DNA of 64,000 bases from Giardia intestinalis. Taxonomy: Eukaryota. Of the stretch, positions 7,325 through 63,829 are shown one piece after another. A program made the position numbers and the translations under genes. Each line of letters begins with the position of its first letter. The stretch's first letter is position 1. Below the pieces are notes generated by a model. That model saw nothing but the letters and a program-made list of their open reading frames with translations. It was not told the origin of the DNA and did no database searches. Where the stretch lies: NCBI GenBank assembly GCA_000002435.2, contig CM018792.1; one strand, 5' to 3'.

Positions 7325-7338
7325 CTTAGGTAGTGAAT
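7325..7338 (+). promoter_or_regulatory. Conserved VSP 3' motif/polyadenylation signal (CTTAGGTAGTGAAT; AGTGAAT = AGTRAAY at 7332..7338)
   Basis: Immediately 3' of the TGA; fits the Giardia AGTRAAY polyA signal and the extended VSP 3' motif ACTYAGRTAGTRAAY (recalled from literature). Repeated at 9158-9171, 10991-11004, 12890-12903, 14699-14712, 63830-63843, and as AGTAAAT at 16544-16550. Confidence 0.75.
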
Positions 7339-9157: not shown

Positions 9158-9220
9158 CTTGGGTAGTGAATGCTGTACAGTGGGTGATAATGGGTGATAG
9201 AAGGTGATAGAGGGTGATAG

Positions 9221-10990: not shown

Positions 10991-11059
10991 CTTGGGTAGT
11001 GAATGCTGTACAGTGGGTGATAATGGGTGATAGAAGGTGATAGAGGGTGATAATGGAGT

Positions 11060-12889: not shown

Positions 12890-12901
12890 CTTAGGTAGTG
12901 A

Positions 12902-14698
12902 ATGCTGTACAGTGATAGTGATAGTGATAGTGCTATGTGGTGTGGGGGTGATAGTGGTGGTGTGGGACTTTTCTTCATGGGCGGGTGCTACAAGACAGAG
13001 AGTCAGCCCGGCAGTGACATATGCACAGCAGCCAGTAATGGAGTATGCACTACTTGTAAGGCAGATAACGGCCTGTTCAAGAACCCAGTTACACCTCAGA
13101 AGCCTGGTAGTGAGTGCATCCTGTGCTCTGATACGACAGATAGAAACGGGGTCATGGGAGTCGCTGGATGCTCAGAATGCTCCCACACGGGCACTAGCGG
13201 ACCGGCCACGTGTACAGAGTGTCAAGCAGGGTTCGTTACGAAGGACAGTGCATGTGTGAAGTGCGGAGACGGCTGCTCTGCTTGCTCAGCTGATACTCCG
13301 ACTCAGTGTACCGCCTGCGTTGAGGGGAAGTACTTGAAGGGTGGTAACACTTGTGTAGATGCTGGTGGATGTGACAATGGTAACTATGCGGACAAGAAGA
13401 CCTGGACCTGTAAGGCCTGCAGTGAGATACAAGGATGCACCGCGTGTGCATACGACGACGCCACGGGAAAGCCGAAGTGCACCGACTGCGGTAGTAAGAC
13501 GGTCAGAGACGAGCTGGATGGGACAACGACCTGTGTTGATGAGGCCGAGTGCAAAGTGGGCAAGACGCACTTCTACGACGCCTCGAAGTGCGTGCAGTGC
13601 GGCGACAATGGTAAGGGCGGAGTCCAGAACTGCAAGCTGTGCACCGCAAAAGGCACCTGCGAGGCTTGTGTCGACGGGTATAAAGTCAACGGAAACGCCT
13701 GCGAGGCCTGCACAGGAAACTGCGCAGAGTGCGGAACAGCGGGTCAAATCAACACATGTACAAGATGCATGCCGGGGTACTTCCTTAAGGATGGCCCGCC
13801 TAAGACATGCGTTCTCTGTGATGACGAGACAAGTGGGATTCCAGGCTGTGCCGAGTGCACAGGCGGCGTGGGGTCCCTCAAATGCACTGAATGTAAGCCC
13901 AACTACAGACCCAGCGGAGAACCTAGCGACCTCACATGTACAAAGACCTGCGAGGATGAGACGGCGTGTGGGGGTACCTCTGGCGCTTGTGATGCCACAG
14001 TGATCGATGCTAATGGAAAGGAGCTTCATTACTGTTCATACTGTGGAGAGAGTGGTAAGTATCCTATCGATGGGAAGTGTGTTGATAATGCTCAAAGTAA
14101 TACTTGTAACAACCATGTATGTACATCATGTGCTCAAGGGTACTTCTTGTATATGGGAGGTTGTTACAAGGTTGATACAGTACCTGGCAACTATATGTGC
14201 AAGGCATCAAGTAAGGAGGGGATATGCACAGAGGCAGCCAACAATAGGTACTTCGTAGTCCCTGGGGCACAGACCACTGATCAGTCTGTACTAGCATGTG
14301 GTAACCCATTAGGCACACTAGTAGGCACTCAAGGTACCGCTAAGGCATACGTGGGGGTGGATGGCTGCTCACAGTGCACAGCCCCAGCAGGTCTGTCTGA
14401 GGGTGGCATGACCCCCGCTGTCTGTACCTCCTGTGACAATAGTAAGAAGCCCAACAAGGATGGCAGCGGGTGTGTGCTGTGCTCTGACACCAACTGCAAG
14501 AGCTGTGTGATGGACGGTGTGTGTGGGGAGTGCAACAGTGGCTTCAGTCTAGACAATGGTAAGTGTGTGTCCTCTGGCGCCAACAGGAGCGGGCTCAGCA
14601 CGGGCGCCATCGCGGGCATCTCCGTCGCCGTGGTCGTCGTCGTGGGGGGCCTCGTGGGCTTCCTCTGCTGGTGGTTCGTGTGCAGGGGGAAGGCGTGA
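12902..14698 (+). CDS. VSP-family 5'-truncated cassette (598 aa), a mosaic: 5' region equals unit 7337-9157, middle equals unit 11060-12889, 3' region equals units 9221-10990 and 14762-16531
   Basis: Its first about 80 aa and its junction are identical to unit 2. The block CEDETACGGTSGACDATVIDANGKELHYCSYCGESGKYPIDGKCVDNAQSN is shared with unit 4. The C-terminal about 130 aa are shared with units 3 and 6. CRGKA tail. Confidence 0.75.
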   Translation: MLYSDSDSDSAMWCGGDSGGVGLFFMGGCYKTESQPGSDICTAASNGVCTTCKADNGLFKNPVTPQKPGSECILCSDTTDRNGVMGVAGCSECSHTGTSGPATCTECQAGFVTKDSACVKCGDGCSACSADTPTQCTACVEGKYLKGGNTCVDAGGCDNGNYADKKTWTCKACSEIQGCTACAYDDATGKPKCTDCGSKTVRDELDGTTTCVDEAECKVGKTHFYDASKCVQCGDNGKGGVQNCKLCTAKGTCEACVDGYKVNGNACEACTGNCAECGTAGQINTCTRCMPGYFLKDGPPKTCVLCDDETSGIPGCAECTGGVGSLKCTECKPNYRPSGEPSDLTCTKTCEDETACGGTSGACDATVIDANGKELHYCSYCGESGKYPIDGKCVDNAQSNTCNNHVCTSCAQGYFLYMGGCYKVDTVPGNYMCKASSKEGICTEAANNRYFVVPGAQTTDQSVLACGNPLGTLVGTQGTAKAYVGVDGCSQCTAPAGLSEGGMTPAVCTSCDNSKKPNKDGSGCVLCSDTNCKSCVMDGVCGECNSGFSLDNGKCVSSGANRSGLSTGAIAGISVAVVVVVGGLVGFLCWWFVCRGKA

Positions 14699-14761
14699 CT
14701 TGGGTAGTGAATGCTGTACAGTGGGTGATAATGGGTGATAGAAGGTGATAGAGGGTGATAG

Positions 14762-16531
14762 TGGAGTGAGATATGCACACAGGCTAGTGATGGACTGTGC
14801 ACTGCTTGTAAGGCAGCTAACCAGTACATATTCCAGAACAAGGCTACGACAGTGACCCCTGGTGGGGAGTGCATACTGTGCCATGATGCCACGGGAGCGA
14901 ATGAGAACAAGGGAGTGGCTAATTGCCTCAAGTGCACGGCACCAGCTAATAGTCCAGGGGCTGCCACGTGTACTGAGTGCATGTCTGGCTTCTCAGGAGA
15001 CTCGTGTGCTACTCAATGCGGAGGAGACTGTGCCGCCTGTGATAAGAGTAACCAAAATCAGTGCACCTCTTGTAAGACTGGGAAGTACCTGAAAGAGAAT
15101 CAATGTGTGGAAAAAAGTGCATGTAACAACAATCACTACCCCGATGACACTAGCATGACCTGCGTCGCCTGTAGCACCATACAAGATTGCACAGCATGCA
15201 CAATGGACCAGTCCACGGGGAAGCCAAAGTGCACTAACTGCGGTGCCAGTAAGATCCCCAGGACGACTCTCGACGGAACCTCGACCTGCGTGACAAAAGG
15301 GTATGATCAGTGTCAAGGCACAGATAAGGAGCTGTTCATGAAGGAGGACCAATCGGCGTGCTTATTATGCGGAGACAATACTGAGGATACATCTGAGTCC
15401 AATAAAAACCAGGGAACTCCTAATTGCAAGACCTGTACCAAGACAGCATCCACTAAACCGGTCTGTGAGACGTGCAAGGATGGCTTCTTCTTTAATACTG
15501 GTGATAAGACATGTACAAACAAGTGCGATGCCACCTGCAAGACGTGCTCTGCTGCTACAGATGCTAACCGATGCTTAACTTGTATGCCCGGATACTTCCC
15601 CATCGATAGTACAGATCAACAAGGGAAGAAGTGCGTCCCATGCGATAGTGTGGACGACAAGGGTCGCGAAGGGTGCAGTGTCTGCTCTAACAATGGTGGA
15701 TTCAAGTGTACTGAATGTAAGGTGAACTATAAGAAGCAGTCCAATGGAGATGCAGGGGATGACTATACATGTGTGAAGACTTGTGAAGACCCCACGGCTT
15801 GTGGTGGGACCTCTGGCGCCTGCGATGCTATAGTAATCGACAATGATGGAGTAGAGCATCATTACTGTTCTTATTGTGGAAATCAAGGAGATGTACCAAT
15901 CAATGGTATATGCACCAGCTCACTTGCAAGTAATACCTGCGCCGATGGTGTCTGCAAGTCTTGTGCTCAAGGGTACTTTATGTATATGGGAGGGTGCTAT
16001 GATGTGTCGAAGGCTCCTGGTAGTCACATGTGCAAGAAAGCAGATAACAATGGGATATGCACAGAGGCGGCAAGTAATAGGTACTTCGTAGTCCCTGGGG
16101 CACAGACCACTGATCAGTCTGTATTAGCCTGTGGCAACCCCCTAGGCACACTAGTAGGCACTCAAGGTACCGCTAAGGCATACGTGGGGGTGGATGGCTG
16201 CTCACAGTGCACAGCCCCAGCAGGTCTGTCTGAGGGTGGCATGACCCCCGCTGTCTGTACCTCCTGTGACAATAGTAAGAAGCCCAACAAGGATGGCAGC
16301 GGGTGTGTGCTGTGCTCTGACACCAACTGCAAGAGCTGTGTGATGGACGGTGTGTGTGGGGAGTGCAACAGTGGCTTCAGTCTAGACAATGGTAAGTGTG
16401 TGTCCTCTGGCGCCAACAGGAGCGGGCTCAGCACGGGCGCCATCGCGGGGATCTCCGTGGCTGTCATCGCTGTCGTGGGGGGCCTCGTGGGCTTCCTCTG
16501 CTGGTGGTTCGTGTGTAGAGGGAAGGCGTAG
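14762..16531 (+). CDS. VSP-family 5'-truncated cassette, near-identical duplicate of 9221..10990 (track ORF 14852..16531 encodes the identical 559-aa product); terminal unit of the array
   Basis: ORF-track proteins for 9311..10990 and 14852..16531 are identical. Ends CRGKA + TAG, then AGTAAAT polyA signal (16544..16550). No further junction follows. Confidence 0.75.
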   Translation, partial: WSEICTQASDGLCTACKAANQYIFQNKATTVTPGGECILCHDATGANENKGVANCLKCTAPANSPGAATCTECMSGFSGDSCATQCGGDCAACDKSNQNQCTSCKTGKYLKENQCVEKSACNNNHYPDDTSMTCVACSTIQDCTACTMDQSTGKPKCTNCGASKIPRTTLDGTSTCVTKGYDQCQGTDKELFMKEDQSACLLCGDNTEDTSESNKNQGTPNCKTCTKTASTKPVCETCKDGFFFNTGDKTCTNKCDATCKTCSAATDANRCLTCMPGYFPIDSTDQQGKKCVPCDSVDDKGREGCSVCSNNGGFKCTECKVNYKKQSNGDAGDDYTCVKTCEDPTACGGTSGACDAIVIDNDGVEHHYCSYCGNQGDVPINGICTSSLASNTCADGVCKSCAQGYFMYMGGCYDVSKAPGSHMCKKADNNGICTEAASNRYFVVPGAQTTDQSVLACGNPLGTLVGTQGTAKAYVGVDGCSQCTAPAGLSEGGMTPAVCTSCDNSKKPNKDGSGCVLCSDTNCKSCVMDGVCGECNSGFSLDNGKCVSSGANRSGLSTGAIAGISVAVIAVVGGLVGFLCWWFVCRGKA

Positions 16532-49818: not shown

Positions 49819-50853
49819 TGTAAAGTAAATCCCTCTGGGTTTAAGGATTTTGTACGCGCCCGTTAAGATATTAGCGGAAAGAAATGCCCACTGCCCTCGG
49901 ACAGGTGGGACTGAGTCATGAGGGCAATGTACGGTGAGGATCCAACAGCAGTATGTTGTTGCCAACAAAAGAAACACAACAGCGGGAGACATAAAATGGG
50001 CATTGACACCCGCCTGGGATGGGAAGTAGAAGAGACAAAGTAGGACTAGGATCATTAGATGTTTCAGGTTCTTATTAGAATGATCTTGGGCTATTGTGAA
50101 TATAAGCTGCGTGAGCACATGTAGCGGGAAGTACCCTAGCAGCGCAGCCCATGGTCCTGCAAATCTCAGTACTGGGTTCTGCGGATAAAATGATAAAATC
50201 ACCTGGTTTAATCCCATCAATGTACCTATACATAATAGGCTTTGGGTTCTTTTTAGACGCTTTGCCAGGAAACCGAGGACGCGCACCAAAAGCATTGTTA
50301 GAAAGGAGTTCCAATATGGACCGTACTCTTCCTTATCAGCGCCTGGAAGATAGAAGCCAATACAAACCCGCACGATCCCTGCAACTAAAAGATATAGTTG
50401 TCCCTTCCAGTATGGACAAGAGCGATTGATAGAGCTCAGTGAATCACTAATTATGAAGTAACCTAGACCTGTATCCATTAAGCTTAACTGGCCTGCTTCC
50501 CAAGTGCTTTTTCTATGTTTTGCTGGAAGAATTCCCGTATCAATCTCATGAATACAGACGGCCGTAAAGCCAAGGGTTGCTAATCTTAATGCTCGTCTAA
50601 AGTTACTGGAAGTAGAGGCGGTTGCAATTTCAGTTCCTGTACAGTGCGATCGAAAGTACCTGGTTACCGCATATAACGCTATACATTCAATGGCTCCCCC
50701 ATAGGAGGAAAGTAGTGTCAGAGTTACAAGAACGCAGAGCCGTCCGCGAGGAGCAACTAGAACGACCATGTATCCAGAGATCACAGTAGTTATTGTGTCA
50801 ACAGTCTTAAGTACCGGTGGAGAAACGTATAACAAGGAACCTACCCACGCCAT
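49765..50853 (-). CDS. Polytopic membrane protein (8 or more predicted TM helices), function unknown
   Basis: Repeated hydrophobic segments throughout. Overlaps the UTP6-like 3' end by 54 nt (convergent). Confidence 0.5.
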   Translation of the reverse strand: MAWVGSLLYVSPPVLKTVDTITTVISGYMVVLVAPRGRLCVLVTLTLLSSYGGAIECIALYAVTRYFRSHCTGTEIATASTSSNFRRALRLATLGFTAVCIHEIDTGILPAKHRKSTWEAGQLSLMDTGLGYFIISDSLSSINRSCPYWKGQLYLLVAGIVRVCIGFYLPGADKEEYGPYWNSFLTMLLVRVLGFLAKRLKRTQSLLCIGTLMGLNQVILSFYPQNPVLRFAGPWAALLGYFPLHVLTQLIFTIAQDHSNKNLKHLMILVLLCLFYFPSQAGVNAHFMSPAVVFLLLATTYCCWILTVHCPHDSVPPVRGQWAFLSANILTGAYKILKPRGIYFTLFEILYIEVFVLCLGQV

Positions 50854-50928
50854 TTCTATTGCTCACTGACTGTAGAGAGCAGACTGTTTAGCCTAGAACC
50901 ATATTATTCAGTAGTCAAGTTCACTCAA

Positions 50929-51855
50929 TCAGGGGGCACCTGACCCCAGGGCGGCCCGCAGGCCCGCGACCTCCCCCCGGAGCCGGGCGACCTCGTCCTC
51001 CAGGGCCTTGAAGCGCAGGGCCGTCGCGACCGCAGGCGCCCCGCCCTCTGCGTCGAGGAGCTCCACGAGGGCCGCGGCGGTGAGGCGGCGCTCCGGCTCC
51101 AGGACGAGGAGGTGGGCGAGGACGCCCCGGACGACGGGGTCCCCGACCGCGCCCAGGTCCGGCCGCCAGCCCGCGACGTAGACCTCCGCGGGGGCCCGCC
51201 CGGAGAGGAACGGGGGCCTGCCGCCCGCCGCGAGCTCGTAGGCGACCATCCCGAGGCTCCACATGTCCGCGGCCGGCGTGTGGCTCCCGCCCCGCAGGAC
51301 CTCCGGCGCGGCGTAGACGGGGACGGCCATGGAGGCGAGCCCCCCGGGGCCCTCCCTGCAGAGCCCGAAGTCGGAGATGGCGAACTCCGCCCCGGCCTCG
51401 TCGAGGAGGACGTTCGCGGGCCGCAGGTCGCAGTGCGTGAGGGCGGGGAGCGGGGCGCCCGCGGCGTCGGTCTTCCCGGGCCGGTGGAGGTAGGCGAGCC
51501 CCGCGCCCACCTGGCGGAGGACGGCGACGACCATCTCGCGCGGGGCGAGCTGCCTTCTGCGGCGGAGGCTCCGGATGGCCCCGTCGAGGGAGCCTGCGTA
51601 GCGCCGCATCTCGACGTAGATGTAGCCCTCGTGCCGGACGACGCGCCCGTACTCGACGACGTTCGGGTGGCGGAGGCGCGGGAGGGTCCGGAGCTCGAGC
51701 TCGAGCGAGGCCTGCGCGTCGGGGGGCAGCCCGTCGGTCGGGATCTCCTTGACCGCCCGGTCGGGGGCGCTCTTCAGGCCGTAGACGGTCCCGTGGGCCC
51801 CGCTCCCGAGCTCTGCGCCCAGGTCTTCGAGGAGGGCGTCGATGGCCTCGGACAT
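50929..51855 (-). CDS. Ser/Thr protein kinase (NEK-like) with C-terminal coiled coil; extremely GC-rich coding sequence
   Basis: LGSGAHGTVYGLKS, AVKEI, HCDLRPANVLLD, DFGLCREG, APEVLRG, WSLGMVAYEL; C-terminal LEDEVARLRGEVAGLRAALG. Initiator gcggattaaaaagATG. Region 50.9-52.1 kb is about 70% GC. Confidence 0.8.
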   Translation of the reverse strand: MSEAIDALLEDLGAELGSGAHGTVYGLKSAPDRAVKEIPTDGLPPDAQASLELELRTLPRLRHPNVVEYGRVVRHEGYIYVEMRRYAGSLDGAIRSLRRRRQLAPREMVVAVLRQVGAGLAYLHRPGKTDAAGAPLPALTHCDLRPANVLLDEAGAEFAISDFGLCREGPGGLASMAVPVYAAPEVLRGGSHTPAADMWSLGMVAYELAAGGRPPFLSGRAPAEVYVAGWRPDLGAVGDPVVRGVLAHLLVLEPERRLTAAALVELLDAEGGAPAVATALRFKALEDEVARLRGEVAGLRAALGSGAP

Positions 51856-52906
51856 CTTTTTAATCCGCGACTGGGCGATTGGGTGGGCTCAATCGCTTGG
51901 GCTCAGATCGGGGCCTGTATAGGTCTACAATGGTCACCGTGGCAGTCGTTGTCTCCCTTCTCATCATAGCGGCCGTCGCCCTCACATGCTGGCTCGTCCT
52001 GCGGAGGCGGCGGGGATCGAAGCCGATCTCGAAGAAGAGGGCAGCGGCCGAGAACGTGGAGCTCATGGGGACGGTGGACGAGTTCTAGCTCTGCGGCTGG
52101 CGGGCCGCAGCTCATAGAGAGTGAATGCTTAGGGCCCGGATCATCCCCTGGACTGACGCCCAGCCCCTTGCAAGCGCCTCCCGGACCGCCAGATCGTGGC
52201 CTGCCCCCAGCGGGTGGGTGCCACCGGCCTCTCAGTGCACAAACCTCAAGCTAGGGTGCAGGTAAGAAGACAACTTTGGTCATCGCGCCTCAGATGACCA
52301 TACTGCTGCCACAGCAGCGAAGCTGAGAGTGTACTAGGTACTATGTTGCCACGTTCCTGGTCGAGAGGCCAGCCGTGATATCCATAGGACCGGACTCTCA
52401 GGGACTGACTAATACTTGATTCAGCCAACGGATTGTATTGGACGTAAAGAGGTAGCGGACATCTACCTTTACGACTCACTATAGATCAAGATACAGGAAC
52501 CCATTGGGCTGATCCTTGGTTTCGCACGTAGCTGACGGTGAAGTACACGATGGATACCGCGACAGTCGAGAAGAGAGAGTATTGCTGTAGATTGTATTGT
52601 GATTGAGATACACAATCAGCAGGGCAAAAATCTGCAAATAAGGAGCACAATATGATACAGAAGTAACAGAGATTGCAGGGAGCAGTACTACTTAAACACC
52701 TTGTAAATGGATTGGACAATATCAGGATTTTCAATTTCAATTCATAGATCCTCGTATGTAATGTTGTGGATTTACTCAAGTTTCCCAAAAACTAGTATCA
52801 GCATCCAATAATATGGTAAAAAGATACACAGCAGTATTATTCAGCACTATTAAGGTCAAAGATTTTCTAATGGATTTATTATTAAGCAAGACAACAATTT
52901 CTCTGA

Positions 52907-54418
52907 ATGCTGGTCTTATTACTTCTCTCCGCCATTTTATCATGTGACATGAATACACCTTTCACTGAGGAGCCCAGCCATGGGATGGGTGTGCGTTTCA
53001 CTCAGCGTGGATTGGAGAAGTTTTGTCAGAAAGGTTATGCTATTATTCCTGATATCATCTCTGCAATGCCTTCACTTCAGGTCCCAGAAGTAACTGTTGG
53101 ACCTCTCAAGTTTACTTTGTCAAATGTCAAACCTCGCGCAGCGCGCGTCTCGACTATGAAGGTTCATTTGCAGGACAACAACTTTGTCAAGATGGAGGCC
53201 CGGGACGGCATCATGCAGATCTCGATGCGGCTTAAAACTACCATCACTGGGATCACCGGGACCGTCGACTGCACCTTCACCCTCAAAGACTTCGGGGCAG
53301 ACATCTCCCTGAGGATCGGAGATGACCCCACCTGTCCCTATCACTTCGGGCTCTTCGAAATATTGAATGTCATATACTCGTCTGGGCTCGACATCGATGC
53401 CATCGGACTCGACACAGGCGGATCTGTCCTTGCAACTGCCATCCAGGGCATGGCGCCCACGTTGGAGACCTTAATAAAGGACACCGTACTGCAGTTCCTC
53501 TTAGATACCATCTTTAAGTCGATAAAACAGTCAATGCTTAATTTGGGCCTTGTTGCTTATGTTGGTAATTATTGCACTGATCAGCGTTATATCGGCGGGA
53601 TCAATATCATCGACAACAAGATAGTGGCAAACCAAGGAGGATATTCTATGATTGAAGATCCAATGGATTGGCCCATCCAAAAAGTCTATCCAAACAAGAT
53701 CACCTCTCCTCCTCCAAAAACAGTCTACACTAATCGAGACTATGAGTTCTATCTTGACAGAGAGTCTTTTAACTCTTACTTATACATCTGGCATACGAAG
53801 TACGACAAGTTCAAGGCAGACGGTCTCACTGTTCCGTACAGCACCATCAGGGCGCAGAACATACCCGGCCTTGCAGAGGCTCTTGTGGAGGCCGGACTAC
53901 TAAACAATGTTAACGACCTTGGACTCGGGGTCACCTTGACTCTGTCGGTCAGCCCCTCCAAGGACACTGCTCCCCACATACCGTGGATCGGGGCGGCTGC
54001 ACTACCGGTCAACCTCACGGGGGCACTCGTTGTGACAGCCAGCAAGGCTTCCACCTCTGCTTCTAAACTGTTGGTTAGTGCAGAAGGCAATGTGCTCTTC
54101 TCTGCTCGACCTCGACTGAGAAAGCACACGTATGGGTTTAACAACGACCAAGCCCGTGCATACTTAGAACTCACTGAGCTAGCTAATATCACCATAACTA
54201 AGGAGGATAGAGGAGCCATGCATGAGTCCGAGCCCCTGCTGAAGTATCTAGTTCTAAACAAGTACCTCCCTTTTGTCAACAGCATTCTCATTGACCCAGG
54301 AGTATGCCTCATGAACGGGAACTTCATTGATCTTGCTAGCGTCACTCCTGTTCAGTTGTGCGACGAGGACAGGGTGCTTTTCGTCGCCGACATTGAGAAG
54401 AATCAGTACTTCACTTGA
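52907..54418 (+). CDS. BPI/LBP/CETP-family (lipid-binding) secreted protein-like
   Basis: Signal peptide MLVLLLLSAILSC. The N-terminal domain GVRFTQRGLEKFCQKGYAIIPDII...SLQVPEV resembles the BPI N-terminus (RISQKGLDYASQQG...). 503 aa, two-domain size. Confidence 0.55.
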   Translation: MLVLLLLSAILSCDMNTPFTEEPSHGMGVRFTQRGLEKFCQKGYAIIPDIISAMPSLQVPEVTVGPLKFTLSNVKPRAARVSTMKVHLQDNNFVKMEARDGIMQISMRLKTTITGITGTVDCTFTLKDFGADISLRIGDDPTCPYHFGLFEILNVIYSSGLDIDAIGLDTGGSVLATAIQGMAPTLETLIKDTVLQFLLDTIFKSIKQSMLNLGLVAYVGNYCTDQRYIGGINIIDNKIVANQGGYSMIEDPMDWPIQKVYPNKITSPPPKTVYTNRDYEFYLDRESFNSYLYIWHTKYDKFKADGLTVPYSTIRAQNIPGLAEALVEAGLLNNVNDLGLGVTLTLSVSPSKDTAPHIPWIGAAALPVNLTGALVVTASKASTSASKLLVSAEGNVLFSARPRLRKHTYGFNNDQARAYLELTELANITITKEDRGAMHESEPLLKYLVLNKYLPFVNSILIDPGVCLMNGNFIDLASVTPVQLCDEDRVLFVADIEKNQYFT

Positions 54419-57400
54419 GTATTCATATTTATCCCATCTGGCACATACACAAGGAACCAAGCTATATCCGCGAACGGCCTCCTTTGAATAAAGAACGCCA
54501 TCTCCGGTTTAGTTTTTAATGTAAACTCTTGTGCAGACTCTCGAGCGTGTGCTGACCACGGCAGCCGGTACCGTTGTCTAGCAGTCTCATACTAGAATGC
54601 AGGGTCATGCATTGTTTCAATAGCAGGTATGAGCAATACCGCACTGAGAACTGCACAGGCCAGAAAGATGATGGTAGCTAGCGAAGATGCTCAGTGTTTA
54701 ATAAGGCCTCGTACTCACAGACCATGGTCCACACCAATACGTGGCTAAGATATACACAGATCGATGACTTCTCAGGAGAGAACTAGACAAACTAGTGAGC
54801 AGGAGCACAGCAGTGTACGGTTAGCATTGCACAAGCAAGGTAGCAGACAACACAATGGAGTCGGTGAGAATGGCGTCTAAAAGGGAGATGGTGCATGCAG
54901 GACCGATACACGAGCGCGCAGGATAGCGCAATCCTTCTAACAAAACTCGAGACGCTTGGGACCGAGCAAGAACTGGAGATGGCCATGCATGAAGTTCAGC
55001 TCCCTTGCGGCTATGGAAGGACAGTAGCATGCTAGTCGTTACATACACGTTCCCAAAGGTTGTGATATCACGATGCATACAACCAGCAGATCAATAGGAT
55101 GGTTTGCTGGACAAAGTGCCTTCCCATCGTATTGAGAACTTCAGTGTGCAGATGAAGCAACGAGGCGCACATCCCCACACTATAGGTGACGGATGGACGA
55201 GACGATATGAGAGCCTGAGGAGAGGCAGCAAATAAGTGCCCGGTGGTATTAGCAATACCATTAGTCTCTATGCCCATAGTAGCGTTCTACAGTGGAAGGA
55301 CCAGATGTTCATGGTACTAACGGGCAGTGGCTCGATGGGTAGATCAGTCGTAGCTTGTAGACTCCTAAGGCTATCCAGGTGGAGCGGTGGGTCAAGGCAA
55401 GGACAACTCCAAGCTGTACTAGAAGGTAGCGCTGGGTACCATTCCAACCCTCGGAGGATGCTTCCAAAACGACTGCACAACTCGACGAGGAGACACGTAG
55501 TCGTGCTAGAAGTTGCTGGTCCAGGCTGGTAGCTCTGGATAAGAAGTTGTCTCCCAGTGTTGTCTGCAGCAATAAGATGGACCTCGAGTGCGCGCACGCT
55601 GCCGCGGACTGTCGCCCTGCCACTCGGAGGGATGCGGTGGACCCGCTCGTGGTAGAAGGCAGCGAGGGCCTACGACGTCCTTCCAGTGGGCGCAGGAGTG
55701 GCCAGCGTCAGCTGTGGGGCCGCTCGAACAGGCTCAGCCCTCGTACCGGCTCCTCCCCGGCCGCTTCATTCACGGTGCCACCGAGAAGACGCGTGCCCTG
55801 ACTCGCGAACCAAGGCGCTGACCATGGAGCAGCGACATGCGGTAAGTAGAGTACAAAAAATCCACAACACCGGCAAGCGATGCACTCGGGCAAAGGTGCC
55901 TCCTGCCTCGGGAGATCATGCATCTAGACACCGATGCTGCTCTTCCGTTGCTGCGGCTCCAGGCTTCCAGATAGTCCGGCCCTTTCCAGTATCACACATC
56001 CTCTTCTATCTGACATGAGACCAGGACTACGGTGCTCTGAGCTCTGAACGTCGCCCTATGGGTGTGGCGGAATTTTACAGCCCTCACTGTCGAGCGGCCT
56101 TACCCATAGGCATCCCCACAGCTCAGGGCCAGCAGGCGTAGGTGGCGCCCTTGCAGTGAGCCCCAGAGAACAGCCAGCGCGGAGTTTGATACGATCCTTA
56201 TCATACCTCGCCAGACCTGGTCGAGAGCGCCCCCATTTTCCATAGAATGGCCCCCAACACAGTCCCAAGGCTGGGCGTAATGGGCAGCCTTTGGATTGCA
56301 GGGCGACACAGTGGATACTAGTGCACCCCGGCGAGACCTTGTGACCTGCTTCAGAGGTTGCAAGAAATGCCCGTCTCTGGCCTACGTTTGTGCTAACGCT
56401 ACGGTTTCAGAACGAAGCGAGGGAAGAACGCCTTGCCAGGCTCCGTGGTAGCCCGTCTGTTTGGGAGACTGCAGATTACTGACTTGTGCGAGGCAACCGG
56501 AGGAGCCTGCTAGGCCAGACTACGAGGACTATGAGAGCCGCGGACATAGCAGCCACACGGCCCCTACCTTCTTTCGGCTTCTCGAATCTCAGTTGGCGCA
56601 TCTGGCTGTGCACGACTCTATTTCCCTTTGTCAGGTGCATGGCGCGAGGGTAGAGCAGCCCAGTCACAGCGTTCAACGCGTCTACTGCTGGATGGGCCCG
56701 AATAGTAGAAGAATGCCTATGGGTGTAATGACAGCGGCGATTCACGGGCAGTCCACGATTGTACGTTCCACAGCCACCGACCGGAGTAGCCTTCGACTGG
56801 GCGTGTCTATACTAAGCCGTGGGCTGCTCTTCGAGGCTCTAGATGCGTTTGATCCCTGCTCATGCATCCTGGCCTTATGCCTGCGGGTCTTTGGCTCGCA
56901 GCTATCTGGGCTTTGTCTACCATGGACCGTTCGCTATGTATCCTTGTTCCTGGAAAGCCCTCTAATGGCTGACAGAACAGGATCACAGGCTCCTGTGTCG
57001 CCGCAGTACGTGTCCGTTTCCTTCACCAGGTGATCGTACTCTCGCAAATGACTCTGCCACCGGCTCTGTCGTCTTGGAAGAGTCTATACTGCAGGACTTC
57101 CCGTGAACTGTTTCTATGCAGATTAGAAATCTTACGTGCTTACCAACGTAGGGATCCAATAACATGGCGCCATGCTCACAGTCCCAGGGTCACCAGACAA
57201 TGGAGCACGGGGCTGAGAAACTCAGATTGCAGCAGTCCAGCTCTTGAGAATCCCTGCATATATTAGGACAGAGTGACTGGGCTAGCACACAGTGACATAT
57301 TGAACCAGCCAGAGAGGCAAACAATCTCCTCTCATGTAAGACCCCTGTATATCTAGGGCGCCCAGACCATCTGAACTCGTAGGCATGCATCCAGTTCAAT

Positions 57401-58869
57401 ATCGGTAATCTAAGCACTGATAGACCGGTTGTGAGGCAGAGCCAGTGCCGACCCCAAGAGCTCAACTGCTCTGAGGCAGCACATTGTAGGCTATAACATT
57501 CTACACACTTCTGCTGATCGACCTCGCGCTCCAGCTGGCGGCAGAGGAGTGCACAGAAGTAGCTGATGGCCGCCACAGCCACTGCACGGGCCTCCAGGGC
57601 AGGGGGTCTCTCTGCCACTGCAATCTGCAGCAGCGTGGGGGCCGCCCCGTGTGCTGCCCCCTCTGCCGTAGCGGGGCTTCAGGCATGCCATCGGGACTGT
57701 CCGACGGTCGCCGGTTGGGCCCTGTGTGACAGCAACAGACGAGAAGACTGTCCCACAACGACATGCCCTCGCTGGAGGACTGTCAGCAGGGCGGGGGAAG
57801 CTGCGGCCCACTGGGCGGGTGAACGATCTCCGTGGGTCCAGGCGCACTTCACTGCGGGTCTGTCGGCTCAGGCTCTGATGGGCGCCGCGATCGCTCTGCC
57901 CGGTCTGGCAGATCACGGGGGACCTGAGGCCGGCCTATTGGGAGGAGGACCGGGACCCTCGCTGATGGTCGAGCAGAGTCACCACAGGGGGGCATGAGCT
58001 CGAGTGAATGAGGGCCCTCTTAGCAGCGCGCATGTCAACCGAGCAAGGAGAATGACATAGCAGACACCAAAGGAGCCATGACCTTCTGAGCCCTCTGAGG
58101 TTTGTACTAGGCTCGCTGGGCTTATCAATCTCAGGCTCTGGTTCGCTCGAGTGAGCACTGCAAGGGTGGGAAGGGAACCTAAATGGAGATAAGCCTCCAC
58201 AAGTGGCGGACAGAGTATCTGTGATCGACACTTGCCACTGATGCTGTCTGGCAACTTGGCTTCGAGAGGCCCATTGAGTAGGCACTCCAGGCAGTAACAA
58301 CGCAGTCAGCTAGCCACTGCTCTAGACTGCTCCTGGAGACCTGCAGCGAGGAAAGGCGAAGTCCCTAGAGCTTACCGATGCAGTGCCAGAGCTTATGCTC
58401 TTCTTCGATGATCTGCTGAGGCTATCTCAACGGCTCCAAGATTATGGAGAGGGAAGCTTGATAGTAGGAATTCATAATCAGTGCTGCTCAGGACCCAGTA
58501 AGCCCTCCTCTCCAGTCATGGCGAGCTGCCGGGCCCTGGGAACGTCAGATGGCCTTGCCGATGTGCATGGGCGGTGGGTAAGAGTTCCTCAAATGTCTAC
58601 GGTTCACCGGAGCTGTTTTACTACAGGCTGTCAGGCTTCTTCCATGACATCACAGGGTTTTTGAAGCAGAGGCCCGGCAGAAAGAAGGTGGTGATAAGAT
58701 AGCCAGGTCTCCAGCAGTGCAACAGAGAAGACCCTTGCTCTATTAACCACGACTCGCTTCTGTTTCTGGACACAATCGAGCATTGACTGAAGTTACTCAC
58801 GGGATCCTTGGGGTGTGCTCGTAGGCAAGGGTCCTAGCAGCACAACGCTGAAGATGACTGGTAGACGGA

Positions 58870-59775
58870 ATGAAGAAGTCCGAAGCTCTAGTGCCCACCC
58901 TGCACTGGTGCCCAGCCGGCTACAACCCCACAATTGAAGTCATCTCTCATTGGGCACTTGCCACACAAGGCAAGAAGAGCAGAGGGGATCCAGGGCGTAC
59001 AATCCGTGTTTGGTGCGCTATCTGGATGATCTGTAAACAATACCGTGAATCGCAAGCTTACCAGTACACGCGTTTCCTTTGTGACCATGGAATAAAAATG
59101 TCGTCTACAGATTATTCAGGTCAATTCCTTCAGGAGCACGACTGCGCCCCACCCCTCATGTCTGAGAAGAACACCGACGATGAGTATACGAGCGAAGACA
59201 GTCCCACCGAGTCTTCAGAGATGGATGGTGAAGATGGCGTGGACGAGGACGGCGTCACTGAGCTCATGAAGGCGGCCAGACGAAACGACGTAGATGCAGT
59301 GAAGCGCTATATTCCTCAGCAGGCGGGAATGGTGGCGAAGTTTTTCAGGGCAAGGATGGTAGATATACACGGGGGGACGGCCCTGATGGTCGCCGCGGTG
59401 CTTGGACACGCTGAGGTGGTGAAGCTGCTGATGAAGCACGAGAGCCGCATGAGGAGCAGCAATGAGTACACGGCCCTCATGTGGGCGACAGCCAACGAGC
59501 GTATCGAGGTTGTGAGGCTACTCCTGGATGCTGAGGGCTGCATGGAGAGGGACAGGGGCTTTACTGCCCTCACAATTGCAGCATACTTTGGTTGTTTGGA
59601 CTGTGTCAAAGTGCTGTTGGAGAAGGAGAAGTACATAAGCAGCAGGTCTGCTCTTTGCGTAGCTGATATGAATGGTCACCCCGAGGTGGTGTCTCTTCTC
59701 AAGAGTGAAGGCGTTGGACTGGAGGAGCCCCGTCTACGGATGCCGCCCAGAAAGCCCGTGAGTGAACGCGCCTAA
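58870..59775 (+). CDS. Ankyrin-repeat protein (Giardia 'protein 21.1'-like)
   Basis: At least four ANK repeats: GGTALMVAAVLGHAEVVKLLMKH, NEYTALMWATANERIEVVRLLLDAEG, GFTALTIAAYFGCLDCVKVLLEK, MNGHPEVVSLLKSEG. The true ATG may be internal. Confidence 0.6.
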   Translation: MKKSEALVPTLHWCPAGYNPTIEVISHWALATQGKKSRGDPGRTIRVWCAIWMICKQYRESQAYQYTRFLCDHGIKMSSTDYSGQFLQEHDCAPPLMSEKNTDDEYTSEDSPTESSEMDGEDGVDEDGVTELMKAARRNDVDAVKRYIPQQAGMVAKFFRARMVDIHGGTALMVAAVLGHAEVVKLLMKHESRMRSSNEYTALMWATANERIEVVRLLLDAEGCMERDRGFTALTIAAYFGCLDCVKVLLEKEKYISSRSALCVADMNGHPEVVSLLKSEGVGLEEPRLRMPPRKPVSERA

Positions 59776-60077
59776 CTGTTGATTGCATCCGACGATGGAC
59801 TAGAATCTCCCTCAGCTGTGCAGCAAACAGACACCTCAATGAAGTGGTGGCTGTCAGTGGATCACGCAGCTGCCCGTTTCCGCAGAGGCCAGGGAGAGCA
59901 GGCCTCCTTGCCCCTGGCCAGCACTGGAACGCCGGTGGGTGAAACGGTCGCACGGGTGGCCTTCTCGCTCCTGATGCAGTAGTCCTCCGCAAGCATTGGT
60001 CACTACAGATCTGTAGACATAAACCTCTGTGGAAACAGATCGTTTCCAAAACGGTAGATTACCAAAATAATACCAGG

Positions 60078-61374
60078 ATGGACACTGCCTTGTCTGGGTC
60101 TGCAACAACAGCTGTCAGTGTCCCACCGTTCACCCCTAGGGAGGTTCATGAGCGGTTAGGTGATGTGCTTAATGAAAACACCATGGGGACAGTCTACTCT
60201 CTCAAAGCTATCTGGGCCTCGCTGTAAAGGTCATTCAGCTTGGAGACCTGGACAAGGATGACGTGGAAATCATCAGACTAGAGCTGACCACCCTCCCCGA
60301 CCTCTCCAACCCAGGGGTTCTCAGGCACCACCAGGTGCTTACGGACGAGGGCTTCACCTACATCGTCATAGACCGCCACGACAAGACCCTCGAGCGCCTC
60401 CTTATAGAGCACAAACGAAGGAAGACTCTCATCCCTATCGCTGTGATCCTCTCCGCCATGAAGCAGGTCGCTGCCGCCCTCGCCTACCTCCACGGCCTCA
60501 GCGAGGTAAGTGCTAACAGGCTTGTCCACCGCGACCTCAGGCCTACCAGCATCCTTATCAGCGCAGACGGAGAGCGCTTCGTCATTGCTGATTTCGGCCT
60601 CTGTAAGGACGCCCTGTGGAGTGGGAGCACTCTCATGGGAATAATGGCGTACATGGCCCCCGAGGTGCTCCTCCGTAATGAGACCAGCCCTGCTTCCGAC
60701 GTGTGGAGCCTCGGGGTCATCCTCTACGAGATGGCCACTCTAAGGAAACCGGACTTCCTAGAAGGTAAAGACCCAGCAGAGGTCTTCGTGACGGGTGGAG
60801 GCCGGACCTGAGCGGTGTCACTGATGGCTTCATAAAGAGTGTTCTGGAGAGGATACTCGTGCTGGAGCCAGAGAGGAGGCCGATGGTCAGGGAGCTGCAC
60901 GAGACGCTCGCTACATTCGACATCCCAGTTAGTGAGCTGGGGCATCGGTGTGTGGCGCTAGAGGACAAGTGCAGCGCCTTGGAGACTGCGATGAGTAATA
61001 TTAATGACAGGATTGCTATTCTTGAGGCGGCCCTCGAGAGCAAGCCGACCAGGGACCGCGCCGAGCTCTGGATGCATCGATGGAGAGGAGCTCTTAGTAT
61101 GTTATCCACAACCAGCCATCGTCTCCGGACGGTCGAGAAGTGGGCGCAGCTTACCCATGAGACCTCTGAGCGCACCTGCAGGCGGGCCCAGCGATACAGC
61201 GACAGCAATGTACAGGAGTGCGCCCCGAACAATCACTCCACAAAGGTGCGTTCTGAGTCTGGCCCTCACCGATCCTGTTCCTATCGAAGCCAGGGGGAAC
61301 TGCGCTATCAGCCGACCTCTGGTGGGTGTGCTCCTATCTTGTCCTTCTCCAGTACAACTGATCAAGGAGAGTAA
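60078..61374 (+). pseudogene. Frameshifted NEK-like protein kinase, a paralogue of 50929..51855, with two -1 frame changes (near 60197-60227 and near 60793-60808)
   Basis: Segment 1 (frame 0, ATG 60078): ...VHERLGDVLNENTMGTVYSLKA then stop. Segment 2 (track ORF 60263..60811): ...LAVKVIQ...HRDLRPTSILI..DFGLCKD..APEVL..WSLGVILYE...AEVFVTGG then stop. Segment 3 (track ORF 60859..61374): GWRPDL...LVLEPERRPMVREL plus coiled coil. The joined sequence is collinear with the GC-rich kinase. Shift sites fall in a (CT)3 run and a GGG run. Confidence 0.5.
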
Positions 61375-61447: not shown

Positions 61448-63829
61448 ATGTTGGTAGGATTTCTCCTAGTTTGTGCAACCGTGCTGGCAAAGGACACCGG
61501 GAAGACCGCATGCGAGCTTTCCAACACAGAATGCGCCCAAAACCTGAAGGACGCGGGCTGCAAGACGTGCGTCGGGACGGAGCCTGACCAGACGTGCACT
61601 GAGTGTACAGATCCCTCCCACAATGTACAGATTGACAAGAAGAGTTGCGACGCCAACTGCCCGGAGCACGCCGCGGCCAACTCGAAAGTGTGCGGGTGCG
61701 TCGCTGGGTACCAGCCGACTCCCGGGCAGAACCAGTGCGAGCTTTCCAACACAGAATGCGCCCAAAACCTGAAGGACGCGGGCTGCAAGACGTGCGTCGG
61801 GACGGAGCCTGACCAGACGTGCACTGAGTGTACAGATCCCTCCCACAATGTACAGATTGACAAGAAGAGTTGCGACGCCAACTGCCCGGAGCACGCCGCG
61901 GCCAACTCGAAAGTGTGCGGGTGCGTCGCTGGGTACCAGCCGACTCCCGGGCAGAACCAGTGCGAGCTTTCCAACACAGAATGCGCCCAAAACCTGAAGG
62001 ACGCGGGCTGCAAGACGTGCGTCGGGACGGAGCCTGACCAGACGTGCACTGAGTGTACAGATCCCTCCCACAATGTACAGATTGACAAGAAGAGTTGCGA
62101 CGCCAACTGCCCGGAGCACGCCGCGGCCAACTCGAAAGTGTGCGGGTGCGTCGCTGGGTACCAGCCGACTCCCGGGCAGAACCAGTGCGAGCTTTCCAAC
62201 ACAGAATGCGCCCAAAACCTGAAGGACGCGGGCTGCAAGACGTGCGTCGGGACGGAGCCTGACCAGACGTGCACTGAGTGTACAGATCCCTCCCACAATG
62301 TACAGATTGACAAGAAGAGTTGCGACGCCAACTGCCCGGAGCACGCCGCGGCCAACTCGAAAGTGTGCGGGTGCGTCGCTGGGTACCAGCCGACTCCCGG
62401 GCAGAACCAGTGCGAGCTTTCCAACACAGAATGCGCCCAAAACCTGAAGGACGCGGGCTGCAAGACGTGCGTCGGGACGGAGCCTGACCAGACGTGCACT
62501 GAGTGTACAGATCCCTCCCACAATGTACAGATTGACAAGAAGAGTTGCGACGCCAACTGCCCGGAGCACGCCGCGGCCAACTCGAAAGTGTGCGGGTGCG
62601 TCGCTGGGTACCAGCCGACTCCCGGGCAGAACCAGTGCGAGCTTTCCAACACAGAATGCGCCCAAAACCTGAAGGACGCGGGCTGCAAGACGTGCGTCGG
62701 GACGGAGCCTGACCAGACGTGCACTGAGTGTACAGATCCCTCCCACAATGTACAGATTGACAAGAAGAGTTGCGACGCCAACTGCCCGGAGCACGCCGCG
62801 GCCAACTCGAAAGTGTGCGGGTGCGTCGCTGGGTACCAGCCGACTCCCGGGCAGAACCAGTGCGAGAAGGCCCCTAACACGCAGTGCAATACTCCCAACT
62901 GCAAGACCTGTGACAACCCCAAAACAGACAACGAAATCTGCACCGAATGTAATGATGGCAACTACCTCACCCCGACAAAGCAGTGCACGCAGAGCTGCGG
63001 AACAATAGGAAGCTACTATGATGGAGACAAAGCGTGCGAGCCTTGTGATCCTAGCTGTGCTGGGTGCACCACAAAGGGGCCAGCGAAGTGCACGCTGTGT
63101 CCTCCCGGGAAGAGGCTCCAGTACACCAATGATGATCCTAATCAAGGTGGATCTTGTGTAGATGAGTGCAAAGCAGAGATGGACGGGTGTGCAGAGTGTG
63201 GAGCGATAATCGGCGGTACGAAGTACTGTTCAAAATGCAAGGAAGATAAGTGGGCACCTCAGAATGGCGTGTGCGCTAATTCAGTAACAAGGAATTCATT
63301 CTGCACGAACGCAGCAGGTGGTGTATGCACTCAGTGTGCTGCAGATCATTTCCTTCAAGATGGCGGTTGCTACAAACTCGGCAGACAGCCTGGTGTCCAG
63401 ATATGTGCAGCGGCGGGTCCCAATAGCCTGTGTACTACGTGCGTAAATGGACAGAGACCAGATACCAATACTGGAGCCTGTCCTGTGTGTCCAACAGGCT
63501 GTGACACATGTACAGGGACATCCTCGCGGGCGCCCGAATGCCAATCTTGCCTTCTGGGATACTATTTCGATTCTGATAAAAAACTGTGTGTGAAATGTAC
63601 CGAGAATAGTAGTGCTATTCAAGGTGTTAGCAGCTGTGTGAGCTGCGCTCCTCCATCTAACAATCAAGGATCTGTCGTCTGCTACCTCATAAATGATAGC
63701 GGTAGCACAAACAAGAGTAGCGGGCTCTCCACGGGGGCCATAGCGGGGATCTCCGTTGCTGTGGTCGTTGTTGTGGGGGGTCTCGTAGGGTTCCTTTGCT
63801 GGTGGTTCCTCTGCCGGGGCAAGGCGTGA
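61448..63829 (+). CDS. Variant-specific surface protein (VSP, 793 aa) containing six perfect 75-aa tandem repeats
   Basis: Signal peptide MLVGFLLVCATVLA at ATG 61448 (the track ORF from 61004 is an upstream in-frame extension). CXXC-rich. C-terminus NKSSGLSTGAIAGISVAVVVVVGGLVGFLCWWFLCRGKA + TGA + CTTAGGTAGTGAAT. Confidence 0.9.
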   Translation: MLVGFLLVCATVLAKDTGKTACELSNTECAQNLKDAGCKTCVGTEPDQTCTECTDPSHNVQIDKKSCDANCPEHAAANSKVCGCVAGYQPTPGQNQCELSNTECAQNLKDAGCKTCVGTEPDQTCTECTDPSHNVQIDKKSCDANCPEHAAANSKVCGCVAGYQPTPGQNQCELSNTECAQNLKDAGCKTCVGTEPDQTCTECTDPSHNVQIDKKSCDANCPEHAAANSKVCGCVAGYQPTPGQNQCELSNTECAQNLKDAGCKTCVGTEPDQTCTECTDPSHNVQIDKKSCDANCPEHAAANSKVCGCVAGYQPTPGQNQCELSNTECAQNLKDAGCKTCVGTEPDQTCTECTDPSHNVQIDKKSCDANCPEHAAANSKVCGCVAGYQPTPGQNQCELSNTECAQNLKDAGCKTCVGTEPDQTCTECTDPSHNVQIDKKSCDANCPEHAAANSKVCGCVAGYQPTPGQNQCEKAPNTQCNTPNCKTCDNPKTDNEICTECNDGNYLTPTKQCTQSCGTIGSYYDGDKACEPCDPSCAGCTTKGPAKCTLCPPGKRLQYTNDDPNQGGSCVDECKAEMDGCAECGAIIGGTKYCSKCKEDKWAPQNGVCANSVTRNSFCTNAAGGVCTQCAADHFLQDGGCYKLGRQPGVQICAAAGPNSLCTTCVNGQRPDTNTGACPVCPTGCDTCTGTSSRAPECQSCLLGYYFDSDKKLCVKCTENSSAIQGVSSCVSCAPPSNNQGSVVCYLINDSGSTNKSSGLSTGAIAGISVAVVVVVGGLVGFLCWWFLCRGKA
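61511..62860 (+). repeat. Six perfect head-to-tail copies of a 225-bp (75-aa) coding repeat inside the VSP
   Basis: Unit CELSNTECAQNLKDAGCKTCVGTEPDQTCTECTDPSHNVQIDKKSCDANCPEHAAANSKVCGCVAGYQPTPGQNQ begins at 61511, 61736, 61961, 62186, 62411, 62636. The copies show no visible nucleotide divergence (minus-strand ORF translations are also perfectly periodic). Confidence 0.9.

What the first reader, a model, noticed from the sequence alone, without database searches (positions are those of the whole stretch)
60078..61374. Frameshifted NEK-like kinase, paralogous to the intact GC-rich kinase at 50929-51855
Three successive frames (0 then 2 then 1) together encode a complete kinase collinear with the 50929-51855 protein: ...ERLGDVLNENTMGTVY[S]LKA | YLGLAVKVIQLGDLD...HRDLRPTSIL..DFGLCKD..APEVL...AEVFVTG | GWRPDLSGV...LVLEPERRPMVRELHETL plus coiled coil. 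The first -1 shift lies at a CTCTCTC run (removing one CT would give GTVYSQSYLGLAVKVI). The second lies at ACGGGTGG (one missing G would restore VTGGWRPDL). This is either a recently decayed kinase pseudogene (Giardia has a large, partly degenerate NEK family) or two homopolymer/dinucleotide sequencing errors. The segment boundaries are inferred by translation; there is no in-window evidence for programmed frameshifting.
Basis: partly seen in the sequence, partly recalled or inferred. Interest (0 to 1): 0.5.

Follow-up and report, generated by a model that had tools for sequence, protein, structure and literature searches.

The report
Known dead NEK kinase gene, Giardia
This is a broken copy of a Giardia NEK-family kinase gene, with two single-base deletions and its 3' half missing. 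It was already catalogued as a pseudogene (GK129) in the 2011 Giardia kinome paper, so it is real but ordinary.

Summary
The window is Giardia intestinalis WB C6, from the 2.76 Mb chromosome of the 2020 assembly. In detail: 60078-61046 encodes a full protein kinase domain plus the start of a coiled coil, read in three frames (0, then 2, then 1). It is a true pseudogene, not a sequencing artefact.

- Manning et al. 2011 list this locus as GK129/G104, Nek-GL4, 'Pseudogene'. Their three pieces map exactly to 60078-60206, 60209-60787 and 60790-61032. They worked from the older Sanger assembly.
- The syntenic gene in isolate DH (assemblage AII) carries the same first deletion but is intact at the second site.
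- Neither lesion lies in a homopolymer. Each is a 1-nt deletion: codon 44 at 60207-60208, and a Val codon at 60788-60789.
- The gene is also truncated. NEK homology stops at about 61030-61050. The DH orthologue continues into more coiled coil and ankyrin repeats, whereas WB continues into the 5' flank of a VSP gene.

The GC-rich kinase at 50929-51855 is only a distant paralogue (Nek-GL1, 38-41% identity). The closest relatives are GL4 NEKs (66-77%). Verdict: already known, low interest.

The parts
60078..60206 (+). Pseudogene segment 1 (frame 0): Met1 to Lys43, the N-terminal extension plus the degenerate Gly-loop (...NENTMGTVYSLK).
   Evidence: Maps exactly to the first piece of Manning's GK129 sequence.
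60207..60208 (+). Lesion 1: a broken codon 'GC' left by a 1-nt deletion. Paralogues have GAT, GGC or GGT here. It is shared with the syntenic DH gene and, per Manning's alignment, with the WB pseudogene GK126.
   Evidence: There is no homopolymer longer than 3 and no slippery heptamer.
60209..60787 (+). Pseudogene segment 2 (frame 2): YLGLAVKVI (VAIK Lys) ... HRDLRP ... DFG ... APE ... AEVF. This is the bulk of the kinase domain, and the K/D/D catalytic residues are still encoded.
60788..60789 (+). Lesion 2: a broken Val codon 'GT' left by a 1-nt deletion. The DH syntenic copy has GTC, and DH paralogue L007 has GTT. This lesion is WB-specific among the sequences seen.
   Evidence: One search shows it is the only WB/DH indel inside the gene, at 60790. 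Also.
60790..61046 (+). Pseudogene segment 3 (frame 1): DGWRPDLSGV...LVLEPERRP (end of the kinase domain) plus the first about 40 residues of the coiled coil. NEK homology ends here.
   Evidence: blastn to DH loci ends at 61030 and 61037. Also.
61047..61374 (+). Open-frame tail with no NEK homology. It is not part of the ancestral gene. At least 61188-61374 is homologous to the 5' flank of another VSP gene (P0078). The breakpoint of the 3' truncation lies at its left edge.
   Evidence: no NEK hit covers more than about 75% of the repaired protein..
61448..63829 (+). Context: the VSP gene (KAE8303970.1, 793 aa, CRGKA tail) that sits where the coiled-coil and ankyrin half of the NEK gene should be.
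58870..59775 (+). Context: the ankyrin repeat protein gene (GL50803_112008; annotated as 225 aa in 2020). It forms a duplicated Ank-NEK module with the spacer at 59776-60077 and the NEK gene.
   Evidence: DH loci L007, L008 and L009 share it.
50929..51855 (-). The comparison kinase: GL50803_86934, Nek-GL1, intact, with K/D/D present. It sits in a GC island of about 74% GC.

Best explanation
The locus is a non-functional remnant (unitary pseudogene) of a Giardia Nek-GL4 kinase gene in the WB isolate. The ancestral gene had the GL4 architecture: kinase domain, coiled coil and ankyrin repeats, about 650-700 codons. It sat downstream of an ankyrin-repeat gene in a duplicated Ank-NEK module.

Three lesions disabled it.
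(1) A 1-nt deletion in codon 44 lies between the Gly-loop and the VAIK lysine. It predates the split of sub-assemblages AI and AII, or spread by gene conversion.
(2) A WB-lineage 1-nt deletion hit a Val codon in the C-lobe.
(3) A rearrangement at about 61030-61050 replaced the rest of the coiled coil and all the ankyrin repeats with a VSP gene and its 5' flank.

No full-length kinase can be translated, and neither genome annotation calls a protein there.

Shown: the three frames, the exact lesions, their presence in independent sequences, the truncation, and the family assignment. Inferred: the order of events, the absence of any product, and a role for gene conversion in the mosaic 84-86% nucleotide identity to the DH copies.
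For: - The three-frame kinase is confirmed.
- The window is WB C6, 2020 assembly. Exact protein matches KAE8303965-70 lie on a 2,761,001-bp record.
- Manning et al. 2011 (PMC3218828, Additional file 1) list G104/GK129 as Nek-GL4, 'Pseudogene', with x at SLKxYLG and EVFxDGW. Their three pieces are identical to window 60078-60206, 60209-60787 and 60790-61032. That paper reports 30 WB kinase pseudogenes, 29 of them GL4.
- DH contig AHGT01000038.1 is collinear with window 50289-61030. At site 1 it has the same sequence as WB. At site 2 it has one extra base, which is the only indel inside the gene.
- The DH gene continues as a 648-aa ORF with ankyrin repeats (P0017). WB homology stops at about 61030-61050, and the tail matches a VSP 5' flank.
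- The lesion sites have no homopolymer longer than 3 and no slippery heptamer.
- The 2020 assembly was Illumina-corrected for homopolymer indels.
- No protein more than 77% identical exists among 5.8 billion clusters, and none of the fragment ORFs is on record. This is consistent with the 31 sequences from 2011 (classed Nek-GL4 or Nek-Unclassified) that are absent from the new proteome.
Against: - Apart from the two frameshifts there are no in-frame stops, and the catalytic K/D/D residues are still encoded.
- dN/dS against DH GL4 genes is 0.40-0.47, no higher than between intact GL4 genes at 0.44-0.53. Decay is therefore recent, or the sequence is refreshed by gene conversion.
- Lesion 2 is supported only by the two WB assemblies. 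I could not inspect reads.
- Transcription and translation were not tested.
Confidence: 0.93

Rival explanations
1. The gene is intact in the organism, and the two frame breaks are sequencing or assembly errors (homopolymer or dinucleotide indels).
For: PacBio assemblies do carry homopolymer indels. Xu et al. had to fix 85 of them. The ORF is otherwise clean.
Against: - Both breaks are at identical positions in the Sanger-based 2007 sequence curated by Manning and in this window.
- Break 1 is also in the syntenic gene of isolate DH, which was sequenced independently.
- Neither site lies in a run longer than 3 nt, and the deleted bases are not within runs.
- The assembly was Illumina-corrected.
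- Even if repaired, the gene would still lack its 3' half.
Confidence: 0.02
2. A full-length kinase is made by two programmed -1 ribosomal frameshifts, or by transcriptional slippage.
For: Both breaks need the same -1 correction. Break 1 is conserved between WB and DH.
Against: - Neither overlap window contains an X XXY YYZ slippery heptamer, and there is no long homopolymer for slippage.
- Break 2 is absent from DH and from all intact paralogues.
- Two successive events would give negligible yield.
- DH annotators had to start the orthologue at an internal Met.
Confidence: 0.01
3. The relic keeps a non-coding or partial role. It could be a donor or acceptor in gene conversion among GL4 NEKs. 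It could be a spacer or promoter context for the downstream VSP. It could also yield short products such as the 49-aa N-terminal peptide or the Met-initiated 117-aa C-lobe fragment.
For: - Identity to three DH GL4 copies is mosaic, and dN/dS of about 0.4 is indistinguishable from intact genes.
- The frameshift patch is identical in WB and DH although the surrounding coding sequence is only about 84% identical.
- The same break is reported in GK126.
- Manning found one GL4 pseudogene (114495_mod) with SAGE expression.
Against: There is no direct evidence of expression for this locus. The fragments lack either the N-lobe or the C-lobe and cannot be kinases. None of the fragment ORFs is annotated anywhere.
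Confidence: 0.08

Closest known systems
GK129 / G104, Nek-GL4 pseudogene of G. lamblia WB (Manning et al. 2011, Genome Biol 12:R66, Additional file 1)
   Same: It is the same locus. The published conceptual translation, with 'x' at both frameshifts, matches the window residue for residue in the three frames.
   Different: Nothing of substance differs. The paper does not give the nucleotide lesions, the DH comparison or the VSP-side truncation, and it extends the model upstream into what looks like spacer sequence.
DH (assemblage AII) syntenic gene P0017 on AHGT01000038.1, annotated 'Serine/threonine protein kinase', 648 aa
   Same: It is the positional orthologue, with the same neighbours: the K2 orthologue, the GL50803_102575 orthologue and the ankyrin gene. 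It carries the same 1-nt deletion at site 1.
   Different: It is intact at site 2 and keeps the coiled coil and ankyrin repeats. It is annotated from an internal Met. Its DFG motif is EFS and its HRD motif is HCD. It is only about 84% nucleotide-identical in the coding region.
Intact Nek-GL4 kinases with ankyrin repeats (e.g. DH P0001, 696 aa; WB P0008, 697 aa)
   Same: They share 66-77% amino-acid identity over the kinase domain and the start of the coiled coil. They also share the upstream ankyrin gene and spacer.
   Different: They have uninterrupted ORFs and a complete C-terminal ankyrin array.
GL50803_86934 (window 50929-51855, Nek-GL1)
   Same: It has a kinase domain, a short coiled coil and a collinear alignment with this locus.
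   Different: It belongs to a different subfamily and is only 38-41% identical. It is about 74% GC, intact and predicted active, and it has three near-identical copies in WB.

Membership tests
Eukaryotic protein kinase domain (Pfam PF00069) | Significant match to the Pkinase profile above the gathering score | tested here: met
   The repaired protein scores 108.8 bits (cut-off 31.7), E = 4.1e-31, over residues 36-226.
Eukaryotic protein kinase domain (Pfam PF00069) | Catalytic K (VAIK), D (HRD) and D (DFG) are encoded | tested here: met
   LAVKVI, VHRDLRP and IADFGLC can be read in frame 2.
Giardia Nek-GL4 subfamily (Manning et al. 2011) | The closest relatives are GL4 members, and the locus was placed in GL4 by the family's authors | tested here: met
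   The best hits are Giardia NEKs at 66-77% identity. The locus is listed as GK129_WB_GL4.
Giardia Nek-GL4 subfamily (Manning et al. 2011) | Kinase + coiled coil + C-terminal ankyrin repeats, as in the closest full-length relatives seen here. Several other close hits carry no ankyrin domain, so this is the architecture of the nearest relatives rather than a formal definition of GL4. | tested here: not met
   Homology ends at about 61030-61050 and no ankyrin repeats follow. The DH orthologue and the closest paralogues do have them.
Pseudogene | The reading frame is disrupted relative to intact homologues | tested here: met
   There are two 1-nt deletions and a 3' truncation.
Pseudogene | The disruptions are real, i.e. 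reproduced in independent sequence data | tested here: met
   They appear in the 2007-based curated sequence and in the 2020-type window. Site 1 is also in isolate DH. Raw reads were not available.
Pseudogene | No functional product is made (no translation of a full-length protein) | not testable with these tools
   The evidence is indirect only. No protein is annotated in either WB annotation, and no fragment is on record.
Programmed -1 ribosomal frameshift site | A slippery heptamer X XXY YYZ lies in the overlap window | tested here: not met
   There is none in 60170-60227 or in 60765-60811.
Programmed -1 ribosomal frameshift site | The frameshift is conserved in orthologues and paralogues | tested here: not met
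   Site 2 is absent from DH and from all paralogues. Site 1 is present only in the DH orthologue and in GK126, not in intact GL4 genes.
NIMA-related kinases (NEK) in the strict sense | Orthology to NEKs outside Giardia | not tested
   The label comes from Manning 2011. A 2025 re-annotation questions it for most of the Giardia expansion.

The most novel reading that the evidence does not exclude
The site-1 frameshift is old and occurs at several GL4 loci: WB GK129, WB GK126 and the DH syntenic gene. The downstream reading frames nevertheless stay open, with dN/dS of about 0.4. This leaves two possibilities. Frameshifted GL4 copies may be retained as partners in gene conversion within the fast-turning-over NEK/VSP neighbourhoods. 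Alternatively, as in DH, they may be expressed from an internal start as N-lobe-less pseudokinase-ankyrin scaffolds. On that reading the WB copy would be a later dead derivative of such a form.
Probability: 0.1. Interest if true: 0.35.

Novelty: already known. Interest (0 to 1): 0.08.

Why it matters
It matters little beyond bookkeeping. It illustrates the already described rapid birth-and-death turnover of the Giardia Nek-GL4 subfamily in the variable, VSP-rich and synteny-breaking parts of the genome. It also shows that the current WB annotation omits a kinase pseudogene that was curated in 2011.

The small additions here are the following:
- the exact nucleotide lesions;
- evidence that one lesion is shared with isolate DH, and so pre-dates the AI/AII split or spread by conversion;
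- evidence that the WB copy also lost its ankyrin half at a junction with a VSP cassette.

Tried and rejected
- I looked for independent WB assemblies covering the locus. Logan Illumina contigs carrying the K2 kinase end at about window 53.6 kb and never reach the locus.
- Exact look-ups of the fragment ORFs (49, 117, 163, 171 and 182 aa), and of ORFs in the spacer upstream of the gene, found nothing on record.
- I first took DH contig AHGT01000216.1 (L007), which has an intact ORF, as the orthologue. I rejected this once AHGT01000038.1 (L008) proved collinear over 10.7 kb. L007 and L009 are paralogous copies of the Ank-NEK module.
- I rejected programmed frameshifting because there is no slippery site and site 2 is not conserved.
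- I considered an intron. GTAAGTGCTAACAG at 60507-60520 looks like splice signals, but it is 14 nt long, not a multiple of 3, and is homologous coding sequence in the paralogues.
- dN/dS did not separate the pseudogene from intact paralogues, so it gives no dating.
- A lenient local alignment beyond 61050 showed no convincing residual NEK homology.

Full report
**Source of the window.** Six ORFs from the window are exact matches to proteins KAE8303965-KAE8303970 of Giardia intestinalis WB clone C6. All lie on a 2,761,001-bp record. One of them is the 793-aa VSP at 61448-63829, which carries only accessions issued with the new annotation (KAE8303970.1, XP_037901999.1). The window therefore corresponds to the PacBio assembly of Xu et al. 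2020, which was corrected with 100x Illumina reads specifically for homopolymer indels (PMC7000408).

**Check of the observation.**
- Frame 0 runs from the ATG at 60078 through ...NENTMGTVYSLK.
- Frame 2 carries YLGLAVKVI...HRDLRP...DFG...APE...AEVF.
- Frame 1 carries DGWRPDLSGV...LVLEPERRP and a heptad-like stretch.

tblastn with the 308-aa kinase encoded on the minus strand at 50929-51855 gives two collinear HSPs in successive frames, at 38% and 41% identity and a joint E of 3e-47. A conceptually repaired protein matches Pfam Pkinase at E = 4e-31.

**It is already catalogued.** Manning et al. 2011 (PMC3218828) report 30 kinase pseudogenes in WB, 29 of them in the fast-evolving Nek-GL4 subfamily. 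Their Additional file 1 has an entry G104/GK129: Other/Nek/Nek-GL4, 'Pseudogene', with no GiardiaDB ORF id. Its sequence reads ...GTVYSLKxYLGLAVKVI...AEVFxDGWRPDLSGV.... The three pieces between the x marks are found exactly in the window at 60078-60206 (frame 0), 60209-60787 (frame 2) and 60790-61032 (frame 1). Each x covers two orphan nucleotides, which means a 1-nt deletion. That curation used GiardiaDB release 2.3, the Sanger-based assembly. The same file classifies the 50929-51855 kinase as GL50803_86934, Nek-GL1, active (K, D, D present), and one of three almost identical copies.

**Relatives.** A search of 5.8 billion protein clusters found nothing more than 77% identical to the repaired protein. 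The best hits are Giardia NEKs at 66-77% identity, many of them 650-700 aa with C-terminal ankyrin repeats. None of the fragment ORFs is on record anywhere. A 2025 re-annotation notes that 31 of the 2011 sequences, classed as Nek-GL4 or unclassified, are missing from the new proteome (PMC12538575).

**Orthologous locus in another isolate.** DH (assemblage AII) contig AHGT01000038.1 (L008) is collinear with window 50289-61030 at 93% identity. It has the same gene order: the K2 orthologue, the GL50803_102575 orthologue, a gene-poor stretch, an ankyrin gene and then a NEK.
- At site 1 the DH sequence is CTCTCTCAAAGCTATCTGGGCCTCGCTGTAAAG, identical to WB. DH therefore carries the same deletion. 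This explains why its protein (P0017, 648 aa) is annotated from an internal Met.
- At site 2 DH reads GTCTTCGTCGACGGG against WB GTCTTCGT-GACGGG. This is the only indel between the two genes.
- Two paralogous DH copies of the same Ank-NEK module, L007 and L009 (P0001, 696 aa), are intact at both sites. There they read AAGGATTATCTG and GTTGAC.

It follows that lesion 1 is a lost base in codon 44 (60207-60208). It is not an extra CT in the conserved CTCTCTC (VYSLK). Lesion 2 is a lost base in a Val codon (60788-60789; ancestral VFVDGWRPDL). It is not a lost G in the GGG run. Neither site lies in a run longer than 3 nt, and neither overlap window holds an X XXY YYZ heptamer.

**Truncation.** blastn alignments to L008 and L009 end at 61030 and 61037. 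A lenient local alignment shows similarity fading by about 61050. The DH genes continue into further coiled coil and ankyrin repeats. In WB the frame merely stays open to 61374. Residues encoded at about 61188-61370 are 77% identical to the read-through 5' extension of another VSP ORF (P0078), which means they are VSP upstream flank. The VSP gene itself starts at 61448. The WB copy has therefore lost roughly half of the ancestral gene at a junction with a VSP cassette. This fits the published observation that synteny breaks where VSP, NEK and ankyrin families cluster.

**Evolutionary signal.** Codon alignments give dN/dS of 0.40-0.47 between the WB relic and the three DH genes. Among the DH genes themselves the values are 0.44-0.53. 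Nucleotide identity to the positional orthologue is only about 84%, while flanking non-coding DNA is mostly 91-98% identical. The patch around lesion 1 is identical in both isolates. Manning's alignment shows the same x in a second WB pseudogene, GK126. I infer that gene conversion among GL4 copies produced this mosaic pattern, but I have not demonstrated it.

**Conclusion.** The locus is a genuine, previously catalogued Nek-GL4 pseudogene with two 1-nt deletions and a 3' truncation. Sequencing error is very unlikely, because two WB assemblies built with different technologies agree and an independent isolate confirms lesion 1. Programmed frameshifting has no support. The link to the GC-rich kinase is only family-level paralogy. 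Expression and translation were not testable here.

Noticed in passing
window 61448-63829 (repeat array 61511-62866): The VSP gene (KAE8303970.1, 793 aa, CRGKA tail) contains 6.0 perfectly identical tandem copies of a 225-bp (75-aa) unit. The exact protein carries only accessions issued with the 2020 annotation. The older annotation has shorter cluster relatives located elsewhere.
   Followed up: partly
window 51001-52000 (gene 50929-51855, minus strand): A sharp GC island of 73.8% GC sits against flanks of about 45-49%. It coincides with the Nek-GL1 kinase GL50803_86934. WB has three near-identical copies of this gene on the same chromosome. The GC richness creates long spurious antisense ORFs.
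   Followed up: partly
window 54419-58869: This 4.4-kb stretch has no ORF longer than 190 aa and is 56-59% GC, yet it is 91-98% identical to isolate DH. It may be the gene-poor DNA that Xu et al. describe around VSPs, or old decayed genes. I did not analyse it.
   Followed up: no
window 53501-54000 (inside GL50803_102575, 52907-54418): WB-DH identity drops locally to 78%, with several small indels, inside an otherwise 93-99% identical gene. The longer Logan Illumina contigs (L001, L002) that carry the neighbouring kinase end at about 53.5-53.6 kb.
   Followed up: no
window 58955-61037; loci L007, L008, L009: The ankyrin gene, its 300-bp spacer and the GL4 NEK form a module present at three or more places in isolate DH. 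The spacer is better conserved between copies than the kinase coding sequence.
   Followed up: partly
L008 9795-11947 (DH, AHGT01000038.1): The DH positional orthologue carries the same site-1 frameshift and has EFS instead of DFG and HCD instead of HRD. It still keeps a 648-codon open frame with ankyrin repeats and is annotated as a kinase from an internal Met. It may itself be a pseudogene or an N-lobe-less pseudokinase.
   Followed up: partly
window 60507-60520: GTAAGTGCTAACAG resembles a 5' splice site, branch point and AG. It is only 14 nt long and is homologous coding sequence (SEVSAN) in the paralogues, so it is probably a chance resemblance.
   Followed up: yes
window 1111-2328: A third kinase ORF (405 aa) is 25-31% identical to both kinases discussed here.
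   Followed up: no
window 4688-16531: This is a run of about 560-880-aa ORFs that share repeated 3' ends, at 8750-8940, 10576-10764, 12379-12904, 14284-14472 and 16117-16305. These ends also match DNA downstream of the DH NEK. It looks like a cysteine-rich VSP/HCMP-type gene cluster.
   Followed up: no
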